A stretch of 64,000 nt of DNA, taken from Escherichia phage MLF4. Positions within the stretch are counted from its first letter, which is position 1. Each line of letters opens with the position of its first letter. A program made the position numbers and the translations under genes. Where the stretch lies: sequence record NC_055780.1. One strand, 5' to 3'. The notes beneath the pieces were generated by a model. It searched no databases and was not told where the DNA came from. It saw nothing but the letters and a program-made list of their open reading frames with translations. Positions 17,744-31,723 of this stretch are shown piece after piece.

Positions 17744-18317
17744 AAGATTTCTCCATTATACGTATAAGGTCGTTCATAAATGAATTGATGTCTGATTTTG
17801 CTATTATTTTTATTTGACGAAGTTTTTCATTTTCAAGAACAGCAGCTTCATACGTATTAACAGCAGCAAGTGCTCCTTCATATTGAGGATATTTTCTAGC
17901 TTTATCACCTTTGTCATACCAAACATATGGATTATCATCGTATGATACTAAATTATAAAATTTTTCACCGTTCTCATTTACATGATATACTATTTGGTCT
18001 CCACCTACGTTTTTGTATTTTTGTATAGATGCTTGATAAGCAGCTTCTTGTGAAGTAATCCATCCATAATATGGATCATAATTATCATTACACATCAATA
18101 AAACCCAATACAACTGTGGATTTCCATATATAGTATTTGCTAATTCTTCCGGGCGTGGTGAACCTTTAATATAATAAGTACGTAAGCGGTATCCCGCAAG
18201 AGCACGTTTGAAATAGTCTTTATAGTTTCTAAAAATATCTGTCATAGGAATAGTCGGCGCGTTTTTATTCACCGTTTTGGCCGCATATTCAATCGGATCA
18301 AAAAATGTAAAGAGCAT
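17727..18317 (-). CDS. 53: baseplate wedge gp53 (196 aa)
   Basis: Length identical to T4 gp53; upstream of gene 5; late promoter upstream. Confidence 0.85.
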   Translation of the reverse strand: MLFTFFDPIEYAAKTVNKNAPTIPMTDIFRNYKDYFKRALAGYRLRTYYIKGSPRPEELANTIYGNPQLYWVLLMCNDNYDPYYGWITSQEAAYQASIQKYKNVGGDQIVYHVNENGEKFYNLVSYDDNPYVWYDKGDKARKYPQYEGALAAVNTYEAAVLENEKLRQIKIIAKSDINSFMNDLIRIMEKSYGNDK

Positions 18318-21823: not shown

Positions 21824-22054
21824 ATGAAAACTTATAAAGAGTTTGCTACAGAAACTATTATCACTGAATCTTCTCATGGTATGGAAGTAAAGCTTGGAAT
21901 GGCTTTAGCTGAAGCTGAGCGTCTTTTCTCTCGTATTAAAGAACTTGCTGCTGCAGTCGATCCTTCGTCTTTTAAAGGAGACCAAACTAAAGTTAAAGCA
22001 CTTTTAGCATTATGCTCTGACGCAGGAGAAATCGCTAAAATGGTTCTAAGATGA
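21824..22054 (+). CDS. internal-protein-like head protein with capsid targeting sequence (76 aa)
   Basis: N-terminus MKTYKEFATE matches T4 internal protein CTS (MKTYQEFIAE); sits where ipI lies in T4. Confidence 0.7.
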   Translation: MKTYKEFATETIITESSHGMEVKLGMALAEAERLFSRIKELAAAVDPSSFKGDQTKVKALLALCSDAGEIAKMVLR

Positions 22055-22064
22055 AGAAACGATT

Positions 22065-22126
22065 AGAAGATTTAAAATAATTTCACAAAGTTGTTTACAC
22101 GGGGTTTTAGTAGTGATACTATTACC
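22065..22126 (+). repeat. direct repeat copy 2 (57B 3'-end footprint + early promoter)
   Basis: Near-identical to 21735-21796; includes remnant coding …EDLK-stop mirroring 57B …DDLK-stop. Confidence 0.85.
22093..22122 (+). promoter_or_regulatory. T4-type early promoter (duplicate)
   Basis: GTTTAC at 22093-22098 plus TGATACTAT; copy of promoter at 21763. Confidence 0.6.
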
Positions 22127-22150
22127 CTATCAACTACTGAGGAGAATAAA

Positions 22151-22336
22151 ATGAAACGTTGTGAATTAATTCGAAATGTTGCTATTGCAATTTCTGCTTC
22201 CGCTTTTAGTTTTTCAATGTTTGTTGGATTTATATGCGGATTATTAACTACAGCAGAAAATGTATTTTCACTTGTAGTAGCATTTTTAATTGGTTTAATT
22301 GCTATCGTTATGGATAAAATTTCTAAAGGTGAGTAA
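22151..22336 (+). CDS. small hydrophobic membrane protein (61 aa)
   Basis: Start at ATG 22151 with GGAGAA RBS; highly hydrophobic FSFSMFVGFICGLLTTAENVFSLVVAFLIGLIAIV. Confidence 0.55.
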   Translation: MKRCELIRNVAIAISASAFSFSMFVGFICGLLTTAENVFSLVVAFLIGLIAIVMDKISKGE

Positions 22337-22337
22337 A

Positions 22338-22718
22338 ATGTATAAAGTATATGCAGATTATCAGGCTAATCCATCTGAAAAGCCAGATTGCCAAATTGGA
22401 TGGGCTCATGATACTTTGCTTGAAGCAGTAGATGCTGCTCAAAAATTAGGATATAAATATGTAGAGATTGTTCAACCGACAGGAAAAGTTATTACTCTTG
22501 AAGAGTTCAATAATATTAAACCGAACTTTTTACTTTTTGCAGGTGATAATTATTATCCTCGCGGTGGATATGCTGATTTAATCGCGAAAGCCGCTACCGA
22601 AGATGAACTTCGTGATATTATCAAAGAAAATGAAAACAAACCGATGTATGGTTCTAATCGCTTTGATTGGTGGCAAATTGTAAATGCCCACACTCATACT
22701 ATTGTTGATGAAGGGTAA
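22338..22718 (+). CDS. hypothetical protein (126 aa)
   Basis: ATG at 22338 with AAGGTGAG RBS; no recognised motif. Confidence 0.55.
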   Translation: MYKVYADYQANPSEKPDCQIGWAHDTLLEAVDAAQKLGYKYVEIVQPTGKVITLEEFNNIKPNFLLFAGDNYYPRGGYADLIAKAATEDELRDIIKENENKPMYGSNRFDWWQIVNAHTHTIVDEG

Positions 22719-22720
22719 TA

Positions 22721-23011
22721 ATGATTCTTTATGCTAAAGTATCGTCCATTGAAAATGGATATAAATATGATCAAGAAGCAGCTAAAGCCTTGATTGATGA
22801 TTATGGCATTTTAACATGTTTTGAAGTTGAAAAGGTTTACATTGACCGTTCATCTTCTCAGGTTAAATTAGTGAAGGAAGACCGTAAATTTAATACAGTA
22901 AATTTTGATTTCTTTATTGAAACAGAAAAAGGTCCTCTTGAATATGATATTTTCAAGAATCCTTTAAGTCTTGAATGTATTAAATATACTTATATTAATG
23001 CAGCGTGGTGA
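22721..23011 (+). CDS. hypothetical protein (96 aa)
   Basis: Tightly packed same-strand ORF; no recognised motif. Confidence 0.55.
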   Translation: MILYAKVSSIENGYKYDQEAAKALIDDYGILTCFEVEKVYIDRSSSQVKLVKEDRKFNTVNFDFFIETEKGPLEYDIFKNPLSLECIKYTYINAAW

Positions 23012-23013
23012 AA

Positions 23014-23526
23014 ATGAATATTTGTTTAGGTACTACAATTCCGCAGGGTTACGTAATTGATGTCACTACCTGGGAAAATGATGGTGACAACTATAAAACT
23101 AAAACGCTGTTTGGCGTAGAAGAGCATGAAATCTTACAGTTCCAATATCTTTTAAAGAAGTTTAAAAGCAGACATTCTAGTACTAAAGCTGAACGTTATT
23201 GTGGTAATGGCTTGTTCAGCGAGCAATCGCTTTTTATTTATGAATACTTGGTTGAAGGACTGTTCTCAGAACAACTTTATCCAGAATTCATTAAAAAGGT
23301 CTTTGATATAGAAGTTGACCTTGGTAATAAATCCGAAGAAGATGAAGAACGTGTATTTGACTTATTCTTTGTGAATGGTAATAAGATATTTGAAGGCCTT
23401 ATTGATATTCTTGGTCATGCTTCTGAATATTATGACTATGATTTCTTGCGTGTAGTTGAGAGTGTTAAATACTCTTATATAGAAGAAATTGTTTTGCCGA
23501 CCGTTAAAATGTTTAATTTGCTTTAA
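23014..23526 (+). CDS. hypothetical acidic protein (170 aa)
   Basis: ATG at 23014 preceded by GGTGAAA; no recognised motif. Confidence 0.55.
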   Translation: MNICLGTTIPQGYVIDVTTWENDGDNYKTKTLFGVEEHEILQFQYLLKKFKSRHSSTKAERYCGNGLFSEQSLFIYEYLVEGLFSEQLYPEFIKKVFDIEVDLGNKSEEDEERVFDLFFVNGNKIFEGLIDILGHASEYYDYDFLRVVESVKYSYIEEIVLPTVKMFNLL

Positions 23527-23625
23527 GAATTATTTGTTATTATTAACTCATACCGCACTGATTAATACCCTCTATCATCAAGGGTTCTTGCTAAAGAGCC
23601 TTTGTTAATAATTGGGAATCATATT

Positions 23626-24234
23626 ATGGATACTAAATTAGCTGAAATTTTTGAAGGAAAACATCCAAATTTTAGTACAGGAAAGCTGAAAGACAAAATA
23701 ATAAAAGAAAATATTTTTCCATATGAGTGTGCAATTTGTAAAATTTCAAAATGGCAAAATAAGCATATTGTTCTGCAATTAGACCATATTGATGGAAATA
23801 ACAAAAATCATCTTAAATCAAATTTAAGATTATTATGTCCAAACTGCCATTCGCAAACTGATACTTTTGCTGGTAAAAATATTAAAAATAATAAAAAGCG
23901 TTATAATGTTAGTGATGAAGAAATTTTAAACGCACTATTAAATTCGGCTACTATATCATCTGCAATTACTTCATTAGGTTTAAGTAAAGGCGGAAACTAT
24001 AAAAGATTCATTAAAATTGCTAATGATAATAAATTATATCATTTACTGGTAAATATTAATGAAAAGATTTTAACTGATGAAATTTACGAAGAATTAGTTA
24101 AAATCGATTATTCTAAATTTGGATGGGTTAGTAAAGCTGCTAAAATAATAGGTATAAGCCCACAAAAAGCTAGAAAATGGATAGAACGAAAGTGTCCAGA
24201 ATTGATAGAACAGTCTTTTTCACGTAATAAATAA
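23626..24234 (+). CDS. HNH homing endonuclease-like protein (about 202 aa)
   Basis: HNH core LQLDHIDGNNKNHLKSNLRLLCPNCHSQT; C-terminal helix-turn-helix-like region; ends 6 nt before tRNA-Leu. Confidence 0.8.
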   Translation: MDTKLAEIFEGKHPNFSTGKLKDKIIKENIFPYECAICKISKWQNKHIVLQLDHIDGNNKNHLKSNLRLLCPNCHSQTDTFAGKNIKNNKKRYNVSDEEILNALLNSATISSAITSLGLSKGGNYKRFIKIANDNKLYHLLVNINEKILTDEIYEELVKIDYSKFGWVSKAAKIIGISPQKARKWIERKCPELIEQSFSRNK

Positions 24235-24240
24235 TATAGC

Positions 24241-24327
24241 GCGAGAATGGTCAAATTGGTAAAGGCACAGCACTTAAAATGCTGCGGAATTATTTCCTTG
24301 TGGGTTCGAGTCCCACTTCTCGCACCA
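24241..24327 (+). tRNA. tRNA-Leu (anticodon TAA), class II
   Basis: Acceptor GCGAGAA/TTCTCGC, anticodon loop CTTAAAA, long variable arm, T-arm GTGGG-TTCGAGT-CCCAC, CCA encoded. Confidence 0.9.
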
Positions 24328-24332
24328 AATTT

Positions 24333-24406
<74 letters not shown>

Positions 24407-24416
24407 ATTTAATTTA

Positions 24417-24490
24417 CTCCGTGTAGCTCAGTTTGGTAGAGCGCCTGATTTGGGATCAGGAGGTCCAAGGTTCAAATCCTTGTATGGAGA
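24417..24490 (+). tRNA. tRNA-Pro (anticodon TGG), CCA not encoded
   Basis: Anticodon stem-loop CCTGA-TTTGGGA-TCAGG; T-arm CAAGG-TTCAAAT-CCTTG; acceptor with two G-U pairs. Confidence 0.85.
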
Positions 24491-24492
24491 CT

Positions 24493-24582
24493 GGAGGCGT
24501 GGCAGAGTGGTTGAATGCACCGGTCTTGAAAACCGGCAGTCGCTCCGGCGACTCATAGGTTCGAATCCTATCGCCTCCGCCA
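24493..24582 (+). tRNA. tRNA-Ser (anticodon TGA), class II
   Basis: Acceptor GGAGGCG/CGCCTCC, anticodon loop CTTGAAA, long variable arm, CCA encoded. Confidence 0.9.
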
Positions 24583-24587
24583 GTTTT

Positions 24588-24663
24588 GCTGATTTAGCTC
24601 AGTAGGTAGAGCACCTCACTTGTAATGAGGATGTCGGCGGTTCGATTCCGTCAATCAGCACCA
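24588..24663 (+). tRNA. tRNA-Thr (anticodon TGT)
   Basis: Acceptor GCTGATT/AATCAGC, anticodon loop CTTGTAA, T-loop TTCGATT, CCA encoded. Confidence 0.9.
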
Positions 24664-24664
24664 A

Positions 24665-24739
24665 GGCCCTGTAGCTGGAAGGTTCAAGCAAGCGACTCAT
24701 AATCGCCAGATGGTGGTTCAATTCCACCCAGGGCCACCA
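24665..24739 (+). tRNA. tRNA with anticodon CAT (Ile via lysidine, as in T4, or Met)
   Basis: Acceptor GGCCCTG/CAGGGCC, anticodon loop CTCATAA, T-arm GGTGG-TTCAATT-CCACC, CCA encoded. Confidence 0.8.
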
Positions 24740-24745
24740 AATTAA

Positions 24746-24832
24746 GGGGAGTTATCCCGTAGAGGTAGCGGTGTGGACTGTAAATTCATTGTCATTGCGA
24801 CTCGGGTGGTTCGACTCCATCACTCCCCACCA
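24746..24832 (+). tRNA. tRNA-Tyr (anticodon GTA), class II
   Basis: Acceptor GGGGAGT/ACTCCCC, anticodon loop CTGTAAA, long variable arm with GTC/GAC stem, T-arm GGTGG-TTCGACT-CCATC, CCA encoded. Confidence 0.75.
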
Positions 24833-24836
24833 ATTT

Positions 24837-24911
24837 GGATGTGTAGCTCAATGGCAGAGCGATCGCCTGTTAAGCGATTGGTTATAGGTTCGAATCCTAT
24901 CACGTCCGCCA
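24837..24911 (+). tRNA. tRNA-Asn (anticodon GTT)
   Basis: Acceptor GGATGTG/CACGTCC, D-arm TAGCTCAATGGCAGAGC, anticodon stem-loop ATCGC-CTGTTAA-GCGAT, T-loop TTCGAAT, CCA encoded. Confidence 0.8.
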
Positions 24912-25025
24912 AATTTGTGACAACTGTCACATTAATATCTACTTGACGCGATTATAGGGGTTGAACTGATCACTCTTCTCTTAATTTCGTGTGAAGACAT
25001 CATGATTGTTGGAGTAGGTATTAAT

Positions 25026-25101
25026 GTGGCCGTAGTTCAGTTGGTAGAACTCGAGATTGTGATTCTCGTAGTCATGGGTTCGACTCCCATCGGTCACCCC
25101 A
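25026..25101 (+). tRNA. tRNA-His (anticodon GTG)
   Basis: Acceptor GTGGCCG/CGGTCAC, anticodon stem-loop CGAGA-TTGTGAT-TCTCG, T-loop TTCGACT, CCA encoded. Confidence 0.8.
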
Positions 25102-25105
25102 ATTA

Positions 25106-25181
25106 CGGGGCATAGCTCAGAAGGAAGAGCAAGGACCTTCTAAGTCCTGGGTCGTAGGTTCGATCCCTACTGCCTCGACCA
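25106..25181 (+). tRNA. tRNA-Arg (anticodon TCT)
   Basis: Acceptor CGGGGCA/TGCCTCG, anticodon stem-loop AGGAC-CTTCTAA-GTCCT, T-loop TTCGATC, CCA encoded. Confidence 0.85.
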
Positions 25182-25199
25182 ATTATAAGTGAGGAAAAT

Positions 25200-25550
25200 A
25201 TGAAAGGTAATGTTTATTTAGTAGTTCATGATTTAACATTCTATTTTAATCATAATGATACTGTTATTTCTGAACGTGTAATTAATTTGCTTTATCAGCA
25301 TGCAGATTATGTTTATGTCGAAAACGAATATGGTCATTGGCAATTTCTCAAAAATCGTTCATTTGGTTTAGATGGTTACGAATATTTTGAACGTAAAGAC
25401 CTTTTAGATAAAATTCCGTTATCTACACAATATCAAAATCATAAGTCTTTACATAAATGTCGACTAATTCGAAATGCTGAATCTGCTTATGAAGCAATTG
25501 ATTTATGGCGTTTACGCCGTGAACAGATTGATGCTTTAAAAGAATATTAA
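25200..25550 (+). CDS. hypothetical protein (116 aa) embedded in RNA gene cluster
   Basis: ATG 25200 with GTGAGGAAAA RBS directly after tRNA-Arg; no recognised motif. Confidence 0.55.
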   Translation: MKGNVYLVVHDLTFYFNHNDTVISERVINLLYQHADYVYVENEYGHWQFLKNRSFGLDGYEYFERKDLLDKIPLSTQYQNHKSLHKCRLIRNAESAYEAIDLWRLRREQIDALKEY

Positions 25551-25889
25551 GAAGCCGGGTCGCTACCGGTAAGTCGTCGGACTGATGTTCCCTGAGTAAG
25601 GACTAGCCTTAATAAATCTTTATGTTTTGTTAATGCTCCCTTACATCACAGCAGAAACGGCGCACCGAATTATCGATTCGAGGAAATATCTTTGCCGTAA
25701 GCCGAGTAGCGTTTTTGACGGAACGTTCGGATATGGTCGAGATATGGCCTTTTAAAAATATTGAGTAGCGTCAACTGCTTGATAACCGGGTTCGAATCCC
25801 GGCGTTTCGTACAAACACTTGCCTTAGCAGGTGGAACCCCGACAAGGTTGCCGCAAGGCTTAGCCCCAGCCGAAAGGTTGGGGCTTTTT
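25551..25889 (+). ncRNA. candidate structured stable RNA(s), possibly T4 species-1/2 (rnaC/rnaD)-like, ending in intrinsic terminator
   Basis: About 340 nt with no ORF; GC content clearly above surroundings; multiple short hairpins; tRNA-like T-arm CCGGG-TTCGAAT-CCCGG at 25786-25802; terminator at 25863-25889. Confidence 0.45.
25863..25889 (+). terminator. intrinsic terminator (copy 1 of repeated element)
   Basis: GCCCCAGCC-GAAA-GGTTGGGGC hairpin plus TTTTT. Confidence 0.7.
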
Positions 25890-25891
25890 AG

Positions 25892-25899
25892 TATAAATA
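25892..25899 (+). promoter_or_regulatory. T4 late promoter TATAAATA upstream of IP-like gene
   Basis: Exact TATAAATA 37 nt upstream of ATG 25936. Confidence 0.55.
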
Positions 25900-25935
25900 A
25901 GTATATTAAATCTACAAATTAAAACAGGAAATAAG

Positions 25936-26409
25936 ATGAAATCATATACTCAATTTTTAAATGAAGCGGTGTTAAATGAAGCGTCTAGCACCGAAATTCA
26001 AGCTGTCGCAAAAGCAGCCATTGCAGCGGGTAAATATTCCTATAAAGATGCTTCTGATGAATCACGATTCCAATTTGCTCGCGACATGAAAGCAGAAGGA
26101 TTTACGGGGAATGCTGTTAGTATGGCCTGGAAAAGTTTAGTTGCTACTGGCGCTGCTTTTGCAAAGGCTTCGGGTAAACCTGCTCCTAAAGCAGATCCTA
26201 AAGTCACACAAGAGAAAAATATCGTTAAAGGAATTATCTCTAGGTATGAAGCAATTCTTAAAGAGCTTTTAGTAATCAAAACTGAAGGCCAAAAACTAGC
26301 TCGTGCTTATAGTTTCAAAGATAACCCACATGCTCACTCTCTTGAGTATGTTGAAGACATTCAAAAAATTATTAAAGACCGCATTTGGTCTGCTAAACAA
26401 ATCAAATAA
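25936..26409 (+). CDS. internal-protein-like protein with CTS-like leader (157 aa)
   Basis: N-terminus MKSYTQFLNEA resembles T4 IP capsid-targeting leader with L-x-E cleavage context; Ala/Lys-rich body. Confidence 0.6.
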   Translation: MKSYTQFLNEAVLNEASSTEIQAVAKAAIAAGKYSYKDASDESRFQFARDMKAEGFTGNAVSMAWKSLVATGAAFAKASGKPAPKADPKVTQEKNIVKGIISRYEAILKELLVIKTEGQKLARAYSFKDNPHAHSLEYVEDIQKIIKDRIWSAKQIK

Positions 26410-26417
26410 CATTCTTA

Positions 26418-26444
26418 GCCCTAGCCGAAAGGTTGGGGCTTTTT
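26418..26444 (+). terminator. intrinsic terminator (copy 2 of repeated element)
   Basis: GCCCTAGCC-GAAA-GGTTGGGGC plus TTTTT; 29-nt direct repeat of 25861-25889 with one mismatch. Confidence 0.7.
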
Positions 26445-26579
26445 GGTATCTAGGCCTTTCCAGGCCTCTCTAGGCATCATTTAGTTTCTACCCTTTATAA
26501 TATATTATCCTATCTTTTAATTGCCCCTCCCTGCCCTAGAATTCCCTAAAACTTTTTAAAAAAATTTTTTCACAAAACG

Positions 26580-26610
26580 GTTTACATCCTTGTCCTTCCA
26601 TGGTACTATA
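26580..26610 (+). promoter_or_regulatory. T4-type early promoter
   Basis: TTTTTCACAAAACGGTTTACA … TGGTACTATACAACTATCAAC module. Confidence 0.55.
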
Positions 26611-26652
26611 CAACTATCAACTACTGATACAGAAAACAACTTGGAGAATGAA

Positions 26653-26916
26653 ATGGATAATTACGGCGAACTGTTCAACTTCTTTATGAAATGTGTTTCA
26701 GAAGATTTCGGTCGTACAGTGAATGATATTAAAGTTATCGGTCCTGATCATCCGATGTTTGAAACTTACGCAGTAATGGGTAATGAAGACGGTCAGTGGT
26801 ATACTGTAAAGGTTGTGATTAACATGTTCACAGCAGAAGGTTATGTTAAACTGTCTTCTAAAGTTTACCATGATAACGACGAAATCGCAGAAGAATATTT
26901 CAATAATATGAAATAA
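26653..26916 (+). CDS. hypothetical protein (87 aa)
   Basis: Start trimmed to ATG 26653 after GGAGAA RBS; the track start at 26590 lies inside the promoter. Confidence 0.55.
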   Translation: MDNYGELFNFFMKCVSEDFGRTVNDIKVIGPDHPMFETYAVMGNEDGQWYTVKVVINMFTAEGYVKLSSKVYHDNDEIAEEYFNNMK

Positions 26917-26946
26917 GTTTACACAGGCTCATGATTGAGATATTAT
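26917..26946 (+). promoter_or_regulatory. T4-type early promoter
   Basis: GTTTAC at 26917, 18-nt spacer, TATTAT at 26941. Confidence 0.5.
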
Positions 26947-26972
26947 GAGCCTATACAAATGAGGAAAACATT

Positions 26973-27308
26973 ATGAAACGTAACTTTAGTAAAGCTTTTT
27001 GTAATAGAAATAATTATCCTGAAGAGCTTTTTGAATCTAAGGACTTTGAAGAGTTTAATGAACGCTCTCAAAACATGCCTGTACAATGGGTGTTAGATTA
27101 TGCCAAACGTATCTTTGAAGGCGTGCGGGATATTTGTCCTGATGATGAAGCTCCTTATTTTAAAAAGGCTTGGGAACTCGCCAACCAAGCATATATCAAT
27201 GCTTTAGAATCTTCTAAAGGTACTGACGATGATTTTATTTTATTAGCTATCAATGATGCCGTTATCGAGGCCATCAACGTCTTTATCGACGAGCTAGACG
27301 AAGAATAA
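26973..27308 (+). CDS. hypothetical acidic protein (111 aa)
   Basis: GAGGAAAA RBS; no recognised motif. Confidence 0.55.
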   Translation: MKRNFSKAFCNRNNYPEELFESKDFEEFNERSQNMPVQWVLDYAKRIFEGVRDICPDDEAPYFKKAWELANQAYINALESSKGTDDDFILLAINDAVIEAINVFIDELDEE

Positions 27309-27337
27309 GTTTACAATCTATTAAAACGTGATATTAT
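27309..27337 (+). promoter_or_regulatory. T4-type early promoter
   Basis: GTTTAC at 27309, 17-nt spacer, TGaTATTAT extended -10. Confidence 0.55.
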
Positions 27338-27364
27338 CTAATTATACCAACCTAAGGAAATACT

Positions 27365-27958
27365 ATGAACACACTGAAGAAAATTGTTGAGTTTATTCGC
27401 ACTAAACTTGGTTCTGCTATGGCTAAAAATCTATCTGTTGAAGAACAGTATACTGCTGCGGCAGCAAAACTACTCGATAAGATTAAAGATCTAAAAACTG
27501 CTTCTGTTAAATCTATTAATGAAGAAAAGCGTATTCGTGAACTTATTGTCGAAAAGAATAAGCAGGCCGAATCAAAAGAGCGTGAAATTCGCAAGCTTCT
27601 TTCGGAAGGTCAAGATGTAACAATGCATGCTAAACTTGGTTTACTATATCGTCGAACAGCTGAGCAGTTGACTACTAAAGCTGATGGTTATGCTGAAATG
27701 CGAATTGAAATCGCCAAGAAAGTAGTTGAGTTAGATGATGCTCGCCAAGAACTTGCAGTTAAATTGGAATATATCCGTGAAACTCGCGCCGCGAATGCCC
27801 TCGGAATTAGTACTGCTGATGATGTAGTTGAAATTGCAGCACTGACTAAGGTTGATATTGAAGATACTCTTGCTCGAGTTGAAACCTTTAATGGCAATAT
27901 TTCTGGGGTTGAAACTACCTCTGCCGATGTTCAGGAATACATTAATTCTCTGAAATAA
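27365..27958 (+). CDS. coiled-coil protein (197 aa), possibly PspA/IM30-like
   Basis: Entirely alpha-helical heptad-rich composition; AAGGAAA RBS; hairpin terminator-like element follows at 27964-27979. Confidence 0.55.
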
Positions 27959-27999
27959 TGATAAGGGGCTTCGGCCCCTATTACTTGGAGTAAGTAGGA

Positions 28000-28605
28000 A
28001 TGAAAATGCAAAGTGATTTCAATTCAATGTTTGAAGAGTTCCAAAGACAGGTTGATGTTCCAGACCAATTATTAAATGCTCTTAAACGTATGGCAGAAGG
28101 ACGTAATTATTATTGGGGTTCTTCATATGAAACTGATGAAAGTCTTTCTGGATTTTATAAAGGTAAAAAGTCTTTAATACGTCCTGGAATACTTATTAAC
28201 AGTATTGAATCAATTCATTCATTAACATGTGATTTTGATGTTGAATTTACTGATTTCATTTCTCCTGAATGGACAGTATGTTATTTAAACGACGATTATG
28301 ATTATCTTGGCGTTTATAGTTTAAGTGATGCATGGTTTAAACGTAATTTACAAAAGTCAAATTTATTCTATATTGATACTACTGTAAAATTTCAGGGCAA
28401 GAAATATTTCTTTACTCTTATAGTTGATTCTGAAACGAAGCATGAAAATAAACGTATTCTTAGTAAAAAGAATATCTTAACTATTGTTGATGATCTTTTT
28501 GATAAATTTGTGGAAAATCCCAATTTTGAAAGCGATTTATTACTAGAAAAATTTGTTAAGGAATGTAGAGAATATGTCAAAGCCATCACTATACCTTCCA
28601 AGTAA
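28000..28605 (+). CDS. hypothetical protein (201 aa)
   Basis: No recognised motif. Confidence 0.55.
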   Translation: MKMQSDFNSMFEEFQRQVDVPDQLLNALKRMAEGRNYYWGSSYETDESLSGFYKGKKSLIRPGILINSIESIHSLTCDFDVEFTDFISPEWTVCYLNDDYDYLGVYSLSDAWFKRNLQKSNLFYIDTTVKFQGKKYFFTLIVDSETKHENKRILSKKNILTIVDDLFDKFVENPNFESDLLLEKFVKECREYVKAITIPSK

Positions 28606-31249: not shown

Positions 31250-31723
31250 ATGAAAACATATCAAGAATTTATTACTGAAGCAGCTATTAATTCTCAAATT
31301 ATTGCTGAATCTTTTACTGATCTTTTGAAATTTAAAAAAGGTCAAAAAATCACTGCTGTATTGGATGATGGTACAGAAGTTGAGATGGATGTACAGGGAT
31401 ATAATTATGCAGTAGATGGAAAACTGTATAATAAATCTCATGCTAAATTTGATTCATTTGACGACTTTGTTAATACAGTTGAAGATGAAAAAACTCGTCG
31501 ATCCATTGTAACTGGTGATGCTAAGGTTCTTATGGCACATGGTCATGAACGCATTCGCGCTAAACAGAATAAAATGGGTGAAGATAATTTTGCATTAGTT
31601 GGTTATCAATCTGGTAAGCAAACTTATGGCTATCAGCGTACTGCTACCATGTATAATAAAAATGGTAAAATTGCCTTTGTAAATAGTAAAGGTTCTATTC
31701 AGTACGTTAAATCGTTCAAATAA
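31250..31723 (+). CDS. internal protein with capsid targeting sequence (157 aa), IpII/IpIII-like
   Basis: N-terminus MKTYQEFITEAAI is the canonical T4 IP CTS; basic Lys-rich body. Confidence 0.75.
   Translation: MKTYQEFITEAAINSQIIAESFTDLLKFKKGQKITAVLDDGTEVEMDVQGYNYAVDGKLYNKSHAKFDSFDDFVNTVEDEKTRRSIVTGDAKVLMAHGHERIRAKQNKMGEDNFALVGYQSGKQTYGYQRTATMYNKNGKIAFVNSKGSIQYVKSFK

What the first reader, a model, noticed from the sequence alone, without database searches (positions are those of the whole stretch)
25861..26445. Second CTS-like head protein gene, with its own late promoter, flanked by 29-bp direct-repeat terminators
ORF 25936-26409 (157 aa) begins MKSYTQFLNEA, resembling the IP capsid-targeting leader. 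It has an exact late promoter TATAAATA (25892-25899) and sits between two nearly identical terminator hairpins (25861-25889 and 26416-26444, one mismatch). Direct repeats of a regulatory element around a single gene again suggest a mobile cassette; late expression fits a virion-packaged protein. This is a second, unrelated candidate injected effector.
Basis: partly seen in the sequence, partly recalled or inferred. Interest (0 to 1): 0.65.

Follow-up and report, generated by a model that had tools for sequence, protein, structure and literature searches.

The report
Candidate third internal-protein gene of T-even phages
A small late gene that model phage T4 lacks but most of its relatives carry, sitting between two copies of one terminator, starts with the signal T4 uses to load proteins into its head for injection, so it is probably an unrecognised injected protein.

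Summary
ORF 25936-26409 (157 aa), TATAAATA at 25892-25899 and two near-identical terminator hairpins (36-nt repeat, 94% identical) are all present.

The window is a Tequatrovirus, a close relative of T4. The gene is 'RB32ORF132c, hypothetical protein'; the RB51 GenBank record already notes the flanking repeat.

T4 lacks the gene and has one terminator there. This empty state is the minority: 80 of 584 records.

The leader MKSYTQFLNE|AVLNE|A keeps all four residues that mutagenesis showed to matter in the T4 capsid-targeting sequence: Y4 and F7 for targeting, L8 and E10 for cleavage.

Other T4-like genera carry divergent relatives at the same site. All belong to PHROG 2280 (unknown function), are basic, and have the same kind of leader. 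Most have TATAAATA directly after the upstream terminator.

A near-identical ortholog was detected by mass spectrometry in phage fD1 particle preparations, but that protein list is permissive. A distant allele was not detected in CsCl-purified Klebsiella phage virions.

Best reading: a late-made, head-targeted, protease-processed internal protein at a third polymorphic locus, gained and lost by recombination between the terminator repeats. An anti-defence role is inferred only. It is a new member of a known kind.

The parts
25673..25811 (+). rnaC (species 1 stable RNA), the last gene of the tRNA/stable-RNA transcription unit. It forms the upstream context of the cassette.
   Evidence: Base-for-base correspondence with the annotated T4 rnaC and with the Kha5h annotation. 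There is no Rfam family for it.
25859..25894 (+). Repeat copy 1: an intrinsic terminator (stem-loop 25862-25885, GAAA loop, T-run to 25889) that ends the tRNA/rnaC unit. Its last bases overlap the start of the late promoter.
   Evidence: -20.6 kcal/mol. A terminator is annotated at this place in Kha5h.
25892..25899 (+). T4-type late promoter motif TATAAATA, 36 nt upstream of the ATG.
   Evidence: The same motif follows the terminator T-run within 1-3 nt in RB51, Kha5h, Kelasse, JK42, phiKp_22 and ValerieMcCarty04. O157 typing phage 3 has AATAAATA instead.
25926..25929 (+). Shine-Dalgarno AGGA, 6 nt before the ATG.
   Evidence: Read directly from the sequence.
25936..26409 (+). ORF of 157 aa (RB32ORF132c; PHROG 2280). 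The precursor is 17.3 kDa with pI 9.5; the predicted mature protein is 15.5-16.1 kDa. All-helical: three-helix N domain, Pro/Lys/Ala linker, long helical hairpin.
   Evidence: dN/dS is 0.03 against RB51 and 0.11 against a Mosigvirus ortholog.
25936..25980 (+). Codons 1-15, the capsid-targeting-sequence-like propeptide MKSYTQFLNE|AVLNE|A. It has two L-x-E sites of the type cut by the gp21 prohead protease.
   Evidence: Alignments A1 and A3. Key residues are taken from the mutagenesis summarised in PMC9026906. Specificity scan.
25957..25983 (+). The 12-mer TTAAATGAAGCG occurs twice, 15 nt apart (25957-25968 and 25972-25983). This in-frame duplication doubles the LNE|A cleavage motif.
   Evidence: Read directly from the sequence. 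Mosigvirus and Jiaodavirus orthologs have a single site.
26414..26449 (+). Repeat copy 2: an intrinsic terminator (stem-loop 26417-26440) that ends the late unit 7 nt after the stop codon.
   Evidence: -18.3 kcal/mol.
26581..26609 (+). Sigma-70-type early promoter (TTTACA, 17 nt, TACTAT) of the next gene, e.8. It marks the downstream limit of the cassette.
   Evidence: The sequence is the same in T4.
26653..26916 (+). e.8, the downstream neighbour.
   Evidence: Annotations of RB51 and T4.

Best explanation
The ORF encodes a previously unrecognised internal head protein of T-even-type phages.

Proposed mechanism, mostly inferred. The gene is transcribed only late, from its own TATAAATA promoter. 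That promoter lies between the terminator of the tRNA/rnaC unit and a second copy of the same terminator. The precursor carries a 10-15-residue N-terminal capsid-targeting sequence, which would dock it to the scaffolding core of the prohead. The gp21 prohead protease would cut after LNE (Glu10 and/or Glu15), leaving a basic, all-helical protein of about 15.5 kDa inside the head. That protein would leave with the DNA at infection. By analogy with Ip1, Ip2 and Ip3, its most likely job is to disarm a first-line host defence. A DNA-associated structural role is the main alternative.

The locus. The site between rnaC and e.8 is a third polymorphic IP-type locus, in addition to the ipI and ipII/ipIII loci. 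In different Tevenvirinae it holds zero, one or two divergent members of one family (PHROG 2280). Units of the form [late promoter - ORF - terminator] are lost, gained and exchanged by homologous recombination in the roughly 36-bp terminator/promoter repeats. They may also hitch-hike on homing-endonuclease-driven conversion of the adjacent tRNA region.

Shown: the anatomy, conservation of the leader, family membership, the precise indel, purifying selection, and detection in fD1 particle preparations.
Inferred: targeting, cleavage, injection and function.

The confidence of 0.6 refers to 'head-targeted, processed internal protein at a recombining polymorphic locus'. The anti-defence function alone would rate about 0.3.
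For: 1. Leader. Y4, F7, L8, E10 and A11 match the four positions that amber-suppressor mutagenesis of IPIII identified: 4 and 7 for targeting, 8 and 10 for processing. The gp21 cleavage motif is L/I-x-E (PMC9026906).
2. Specificity. It is the only such N-terminus among 583 ORF starts in the window apart from the two annotated IPs.
3. Conservation. Leaders of the same type head every allele at this locus: MKSYAEFLTE, MKFKEFLAE, MKTYAEFLTE, MYTFNEFLAETEVITE and MKFKDFLTEEELFE (alignments).
4. One family. All alleles hit phrog_2280 at E-values from 1e-10 to 1e-60. Profile-profile comparison gives 87% probability, E 3.9e-6. The AF2 models of alleles A and C share one architecture. All are basic, pI 9.3-9.6.
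5. Late promoter. It sits directly after the terminator and is kept across genera and alleles.
6. Real gene. dN/dS is 0.03-0.11.
7. Proteomics. fD1 Gp140 differs from this ORF at 2 of 157 residues. It is scored 'PPAP' under the strict threshold in LC-MS/MS of purified particles (PMC8309999 Table S3).
8. Indel. T4, Sf24 and PST have one terminator and no gene. Their left flank equals that of copy 1 and their right flank equals that of copy 2. RB69 lacks exactly the 555-bp A unit relative to Kelasse.
9. Precedent. Ip1, Ip2 and Ip3 each inhibit a different GmrSD type IV nuclease (PMC12373910).
Against: - No direct evidence of cleavage, of location inside the head, or of injection.
- The fD1 particle list is permissive. 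It has 113-137 phage proteins, including DenV, lysozyme e, NudE and a putative homing endonuclease, plus 672 host proteins.
- In CsCl-purified ValerieMcCarty04 virions no peptide of the locus protein (allele D, WKM80661) appears in the stored part of the table, while IPII/IPIII-like proteins give about 92 rows. The CTS-bearing ipI-locus protein of that phage was also not genuinely detected, so the negative result is weak.
- Ip1-3 are unrelated to one another, whereas this family is recognisably conserved across genera with a strongly conserved N domain (GKYSYKD.SDESRF). That fits a conserved target or a structural role at least as well as an arms-race inhibitor.
- TATAAATA alone is at chance frequency.
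- Two alleles have one-mismatch variants of it.
Confidence: 0.6

Rival explanations
1. It is a head-targeted protein but not an effector. On this reading it is a prohead-core accessory or DNA-associated packing protein. The leader takes it into the core, where it helps assembly or DNA condensation. It is then either degraded or kept as a basic counter-ion, with no role against host defence.
For: - All alleles are basic, helical proteins with a Pro/Lys/Ala-rich linker.
- The family is conserved across genera under purifying selection.
- IPIII itself affects head morphogenesis (PMC9026906).
- An internal L-K-E site exists within the long helix (sequence).
Against: - The gene is dispensable. T4 and about 14% of records lack it.
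- The locus swaps very divergent alleles, a pattern typical of host-interaction genes.
- All three T4 IPs turned out to be anti-restriction proteins.
Confidence: 0.2
2. It is a late, non-virion protein. The N-terminal similarity would then be a relic, or would serve another purpose such as translation initiation, and the fD1 detection would be carry-over from the lysate.
For: - The fD1 particle list contains obvious non-virion proteins.
- Allele D gave no peptides in CsCl-purified virions.
- Annotators who knew the Ip genes left it as 'hypothetical'.
Against: - The four functionally mapped leader positions, and a following L-x-E|A or L-x-E|S site, are kept in alleles whose mature parts have diverged to 28-40% identity.
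- A 10-residue CTS is sufficient to load foreign proteins.
- Chance similarity is excluded.
Confidence: 0.15
3. The unit is an autonomous mobile element whose 29-36-bp repeats are recognition sites for a dedicated recombinase.
For: - The gene is flanked by direct repeats, and the empty site is precise.
- PeSL mini-circles have been demonstrated in RB49 and phi1 (PMC2839356).
Against: - The unit encodes no recombinase.
- The repeats are functional terminators, and there are only two copies in the window.
- In every genome examined the family was found only at this one syntenic site.
- T4 recombination needs less than 50 bp of homology.
Confidence: 0.03

Closest known systems
T4 internal proteins IPI, IPII and IPIII, and the Ip4-Ip13 set of other T-even phages (Black; Repoila et al. 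1994; Silas et al. 2025)
   Same: - An N-terminal leader of the form M-K-T/S-Y-x-E/Q-F-L/I-x-E, followed by Ala or Ser.
- An L/I-x-E protease site.
- A small, non-essential protein.
- Presence/absence and allele polymorphism among close relatives.
- Its own promoter.
   Different: - It lies at a third site (rnaC to e.8), not at the ipI or ipII/ipIII loci.
- It has no sequence similarity to any named Ip beyond the leader.
- Its alleles form one recognisable family across genera.
- T4 lacks it.
- Packaging, cleavage and injection have not been shown.
[quoted passage not shown] 2010; Comeau et al. 2014)
   Same: - A short conserved regulatory repeat containing a GGGG...CCCC-type stem-loop terminator flanks a single accessory ORF.
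- The close relative without the ORF keeps one chimeric copy.
- The unit is transcriptionally insulated.
   Different: - The promoter joined to the stem-loop is a late TATAAATA, not a sigma-70 early promoter.
- The repeat is about 36 bp, not about 100 bp.
- Only the stem-loop and the first bases of the promoter are duplicated.
- Mini-circles have not been tested.
Morons of lambdoid phages
   Same: A single gene with its own promoter and terminator, set between other transcription units.
   Different: It has the same orientation as its neighbours, is flanked by homologous repeats, and is expressed late in lytic growth rather than from a prophage.
PHROG 2280 (unknown function); RB32ORF132c, RB69ORF148c/149c, fD1 Gp140
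   Same: This is the family the ORF belongs to. The HMM match is full-length, E 9e-60.
   Different: No function is attached to the family. The leader and the locus structure are not annotated in any of the records read here.

Membership tests
T-even internal proteins (CTS-bearing IPs) | N-terminal capsid-targeting sequence, with the residues at positions 4 and 7 that are needed for targeting | tested here: met
   Y4 and F7 are present. The positions are defined by the IPIII amber-suppressor work summarised in PMC9026906. The score is 7 of 11 identities to canonical leaders, unique among 583 ORF starts.
T-even internal proteins (CTS-bearing IPs) | gp21 prohead-protease site L/I-x-E at the end of the propeptide (positions 8 and 10) | tested here: met
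   L8-N-E10|A11, and again L13-N-E15|A16. An equivalent site is present in all alleles. Actual cleavage was not tested.
T-even internal proteins (CTS-bearing IPs) | Present in purified virions at tens to hundreds of copies | tested here: inconclusive
   fD1 Gp140 is scored 'PPAP' by LC-MS/MS, but in a permissive list. Allele D was not detected in CsCl-purified ValerieMcCarty04. No copy numbers are available.
T-even internal proteins (CTS-bearing IPs) | Propeptide removed in the mature head; protein injected with the DNA | not testable with these tools
   This needs N-terminal or semi-tryptic mass spectrometry of virions, plus osmotic-shock or injection assays.
T-even internal proteins (CTS-bearing IPs) | Encoded at the ipI locus (57B to tRNA.4) or the ipII/ipIII locus (next to e) | tested here: not met
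   The gene lies between rnaC and e.8. The window's classical IP genes are at 21824-22054 and 31250-31723.
T-even internal proteins (CTS-bearing IPs) | Non-essential and polymorphic among close relatives | tested here: met
   Absent from T4, Sf24 and PST. Alleles A, A', B, C and D, and tandem pairs, occur at the same site.
GmrSD inhibitors Ip1/Ip2/Ip3 | Sequence or structural relatedness to Ip1, Ip2 or Ip3 beyond the leader | tested here: not met
   The window's IP genes fall in other PHROGs (3499, 3155) and in DUF7412; the target falls only in phrog_2280. Foldseek found nothing in PDB or BFVD apart from the target's own orthologs. Inhibition of any nuclease was not tested.
PeSL regulatory cassettes | Composite element made of a sigma-70-like early promoter plus a stem-loop | tested here: not met
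   Copy 1 is followed by a late TATAAATA. The nearest early promoter after copy 2 starts 132 nt beyond the repeat.
PeSL regulatory cassettes | Repeats flank an accessory ORF that a close relative lacks, and that relative keeps a single chimeric element | tested here: met
   T4 and Sf24 have the copy-1-type stem joined to the copy-2-type downstream flank. RB69 compared with Kelasse lacks exactly 555 bp.
PeSL regulatory cassettes | Excision as mini-circles during infection | not testable with these tools
   This needs inverse PCR on infected cells.
PHROG 2280 | Full-length match to the family HMM | tested here: met
   E 9.3e-60, covering residues 1-157 against profile positions 1-172 of 178. Alleles B, C, A' and D also match.

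The most novel reading that the evidence does not exclude
The rnaC-e.8 site is a third, so far unnamed internal-protein locus of the Tevenvirinae. It is occupied in about 86% of sequenced T4 relatives that share this region, but empty in T4 itself. Its PHROG 2280 proteins would be head-packaged and injected, and would neutralise a first-line host defence that is not yet matched to any phage inhibitor. Examples are one of the GmrSD groups that Silas et al. could not pair with Ip1-10, or another DNA-sensing system. Alleles would be exchanged as late-promoter/terminator cassettes.
Probability: 0.3. Interest if true: 0.6.

Novelty: new member of a known kind. Interest (0 to 1): 0.45.

Why it matters
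All three T4 internal proteins have recently been shown to be injected inhibitors of different type IV restriction enzymes. Several active GmrSD variants still have no known inhibitor (PMC12373910).

This is a further leader-bearing family. It is present in hundreds of therapeutic and environmental T4-like phages and absent from T4, which is probably why it was overlooked. It is therefore an immediate, cheap candidate for new anti-defence activity and for explaining host-range differences between T4 and its relatives.

The locus also shows that the cassette shuffling described for early promoter/stem-loop elements can work with a late promoter joined to a terminator.

It adds a natural second example of a doubled protease site in a targeting leader, which is useful for T4 head-cargo engineering.

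Tried and rejected
- Pfam: no family. The only hit is a chance Shikimate_dh_N match at E 0.12.
- Foldseek of the AF2 model against PDB: nothing better than E 1.7.
- Foldseek against BFVD: only the protein's own orthologs.
- Exhaustive HMMER against 1.8 billion representatives: only T4-like phage proteins, plus four large repetitive proteins (E 8e-6 to 2e-4). Their Pfam content (cadherin, Ig, VWA) marks these as compositional matches, and they were discarded.
- Rfam: nothing for the hairpins or for rnaC/rnaD.
- Pairwise BLASTP between alleles: only marginal, E 5e-4 to 0.6. Homology was settled by the PHROG HMM and hhalign instead.
- Shared 'promoter + leader' DNA module between this gene and the classical IP genes: none found. 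Only the roughly 30 nt coding for the leader are alike.
- First empty-junction query: badly designed, with only 11 nt of right flank, so it could not separate the states. It was redone.
- Literature: no paper contains 'RB32ORF132c'. Repoila et al. 1994 is not held. The supplements of Silas et al. contain no sequence of this family.
- Strong concerted evolution of the two repeat copies: considered and set aside. Copy 1 and copy 2 differ at 1-2 stem positions in most genomes, and the window's copy 1 is intermediate. That is compatible with occasional conversion but proves nothing.

Full report
**What the window is**

The 1.4-kb stretch around the finding is 95-97.5% identical to hundreds of Tequatrovirus genomes, such as vB_Eco_EL, RB51, RB68 and Kha5h. 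Gene order in the window is that of T4:
- 57B, then an ipI-locus gene, tRNA.4-tRNA.2 and a tRNA array of ten genes;
- then the stable RNAs rnaD and rnaC, the finding, e.8 ... e, and an ipIV-type gene.

So the gene and its repeat have already been seen by annotators. Its leader has not been annotated in any record I read.

**Check of the observation**

All coordinates are right.
- The two 29-mers differ at one base. The repeat extends to 36 nt at 94% identity.
- Nothing else in the window matches it, even with three mismatches, and shuffles give none.
- Both copies are textbook intrinsic terminators: a 10-bp stem, a GAAA loop and a T-run. They fold at -20.6 and -18.3 kcal/mol, z about -4.
- TATAAATA is at 25892-25899, but the motif occurs 12 times in the window against 11.1 expected. 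On its own it proves nothing.
- What counts is where it sits. It follows the terminator T-run directly in RB51, Kha5h and Kelasse (allele A), JK42 (allele C), phiKp_22 (A') and ValerieMcCarty04 (D). O157 typing phage 3 and allele B have one-mismatch variants.
- The ORF is a real gene. dN/dS is 0.03 against RB51 and 0.11 against a Mosigvirus ortholog.

**The leader**

According to the review PMC9026906:
- the first 10 residues of IPIII suffice for loading into the head;
- suppressor mutagenesis mapped targeting mainly to residues 4 and 7, and processing to residues 8 and 10;
- gp21 cuts after L/I-x-E.

The ORF begins M-K-S-Y4-T-Q-F7-L8-N-E10|A, followed by a second V-L-N-E15|A. The second site was created by an in-frame repeat of the 12-mer TTAAATGAAGCG, 15 nt apart. 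IPI likewise has a 19-residue propeptide ending in ITE|A.

I scored every ATG start with at least 40 codons in the window against seven canonical IP leaders. Only the two annotated IP genes (11 of 11) and this ORF (7 of 11) exceed 5 of 11.

**The locus in other phages**

T4 has no gene here. It has a single terminator whose left flank is that of the window's copy 1 and whose right flank is that of copy 2. Sf24 and PST are the same.

A junction-specific search shows this empty state in only 80 of 584 records that hold the region. The occupied state is therefore the norm, and T4 is the exception.

The site is occupied by different things in different phages:

| Allele | Length | Leader | Where found |
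|---|---|---|---|
| A (this ORF) | 157 aa (154 aa in Mosigvirus) | MKSYTQFLNE (MKSYAEFLTE in Mosigvirus) | about 385 records at 80% or more protein identity; about 75% identity in some Mosigvirus |
| A + B in tandem | B is 187 aa | MKTYAEFLTEA | Kelasse and 164 other records; RB69 has B alone, split into ORF148c/149c |
| C | 208 aa | MYTFNEFLAETEVITEA | JK42 and 143 other records (Escherichia, Enterobacter, Klebsiella, Serratia and other hosts) |
| A' | 177 aa | MKFKEFLAEA | Jiaodavirus |
| D | 194 aa | MKFKDFLTEEELFEA | ValerieMcCarty04 |
| A' type + C type together | 178 and 189 aa | MLEYSEFLKE (A'-type copy), MLQYNEFLKE (C-type copy) | Yersinia phage fHe-Yen9-01 (genes 153 and 154) |

Evidence that these are one family:
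- All match phrog_2280, 'unknown function'.
- Profile-profile comparison of the A and C groups gives 87% probability, E 3.9e-6.
- AF2 models of A and C share one plan: leader helix, three-helix N domain, disordered Pro/Lys/Ala linker, helical C domain.
- All are basic, pI 9.3-9.6.

This is therefore an old, resident, fast-diverging locus of the Tevenvirinae, not a recent insertion.

**How the cassette moves**

- Empty-site genomes carry the copy-1-type stem (GCCCCGACC) joined to the copy-2-type downstream flank (GGTATCTAGG). The crossover therefore lay in the identical 3' part of the repeat.
- RB69 (Mosigvirus) is 94-95% identical in DNA to Kelasse (Tequatrovirus) from rnaD through allele B and e.8, and lacks exactly the 555-bp A unit. 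Similarity collapses after e.8. By contrast, another Mosigvirus with allele A is only 80.5% identical to the window over this stretch. Units and their surroundings are thus exchanged between genera.
- This matches the recombination model proposed for PeSL elements (PMC2839356 and PMC4122927), with two differences. The promoter here is late, and the duplicated element is mostly the terminator.
- The site adjoins the tRNA region, where homing endonucleases act: SegB in T4, and an HNH-like ORF at 23602-24234 in the window. Co-conversion could help spread the cassette. This last point is inference only.

**Is the protein in the virion?**

Two published datasets bear on this.
- **fD1 / phiD1 (Tequatrovirus).** Gp140 differs from the window ORF at two residues. 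It is marked 'PPAP' under the strict criterion in LC-MS/MS of ultracentrifuged particles (PMC8309999). The same list contains DenV, lysozyme e, NudE and a putative homing endonuclease, so it shows expression and co-purification rather than location inside the head.
- **ValerieMcCarty04 (Jiaodavirus).** In CsCl-purified virions the IPII/IPIII-like proteins give about 92 peptide rows. The locus protein (allele D) gives none in the stored part of the table, which does cover its neighbours. The CTS-bearing ipI-locus protein has only one spurious match. The authors state that all hypothetical proteins had low counts.

Taken together this is suggestive, not decisive.

**Function**

No Pfam family, solved structure or viral model gives a lead. 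The exhaustive HMMER search finds only T4-like phage proteins plus compositional noise.

The functional inference rests on analogy. Ip1, Ip2 and Ip3 are unrelated to one another but share the leader, and each blocks a different GmrSD-type nuclease. Ip4-10 were tested without a match, and several active GmrSD groups remain unpaired (PMC12373910). IPIII works in the cytoplasm without its leader (PMC9391042).

Against a pure arms-race reading, the N domain of this family is strongly conserved across genera and the family is under purifying selection.

**Verdict**

The leader, the late unit and the repeat-bounded indel are real. 'Mobile cassette' should be read as recombination-mediated shuffling at a resident polymorphic locus. 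Packaging has preliminary support. Effector function is untested.
- It is best filed as a new member of a known kind: an additional leader-bearing internal-protein family at a third locus. Practical interest is moderate, because T4 lacks the gene and it has therefore never been studied.

Noticed in passing
window 23602-24234 (+): A 210-aa ORF with an HNH-type motif (HIVLQLDHIDGNNKNH...CPNCH) lies just upstream of the tRNA array. The Pfam HNH hit is weak and below the cut-off. RB51 and T4 carry different homing endonucleases at other positions in the same tRNA region. It may drive co-conversion of the neighbouring cassette.
   Followed up: partly
window 24241-25181 (+): The tRNA array has ten genes (Leu, Gly, Pro, Ser, Thr, Met/Ile-CAU, Tyr, Asn, His, Arg), against eight in T4. 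ARAGORN did not call a tRNA-Gln in the scanned range 22000-28000. The content differs from RB51 and Kha5h as well.
   Followed up: no
window 21824-22054 (+) and 31250-31723 (+): These are the two classical IP-type genes of this phage. One is a 76-aa ipI-locus protein (MKTYKEFATETIITE; phrog_3499), preceded by a sigma-70-like promoter rather than a late one. The other is a 157-aa IpIV-type protein (phrog_3155, DUF7412).
   Followed up: partly
L013 1801-2363 (RB69, AY303349): RB69's allele B is annotated as two overlapping ORFs (149c and 148c), and tblastn needs two pieces to cover it. This indicates a frameshift, which is either a pseudogene or a sequencing error in the reference record.
   Followed up: partly
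L013 versus L007 (RB69 versus Kelasse): The rnaD-rnaC-alleleB-e.8 stretch is 94-95% identical in DNA between a Mosigvirus and a Tequatrovirus, and the similarity ends abruptly after e.8. This is an inter-genus recombinational mosaic.
   Followed up: partly
window 26450-26474 (+): The near-palindromic element CTAGGCCTTTCCAGGCCTCTCTAGG lies immediately after terminator copy 2. It is conserved, with a few base differences, in T4 and RB51 at the same place. Its function is unknown.
   Followed up: no
window 25200-25550 (+): A 116-aa ORF (RB51ncORF141c, similar to RB69ORF150c) lies between tRNA-Arg and rnaD. It is absent from T4, where segB lies next to tRNA-Arg. It has no Pfam family.
   Followed up: partly
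L010 (ValerieMcCarty04) 17897-18280 (-): The ipI-locus protein of this Klebsiella phage (MKSYQEFLMETEALLE...) has a good leader, yet shows no genuine peptide in the CsCl-virion mass-spectrometry table. Either small Lys-rich IPs escape that workflow, or not every leader-bearing protein is abundant in virions.
   Followed up: partly
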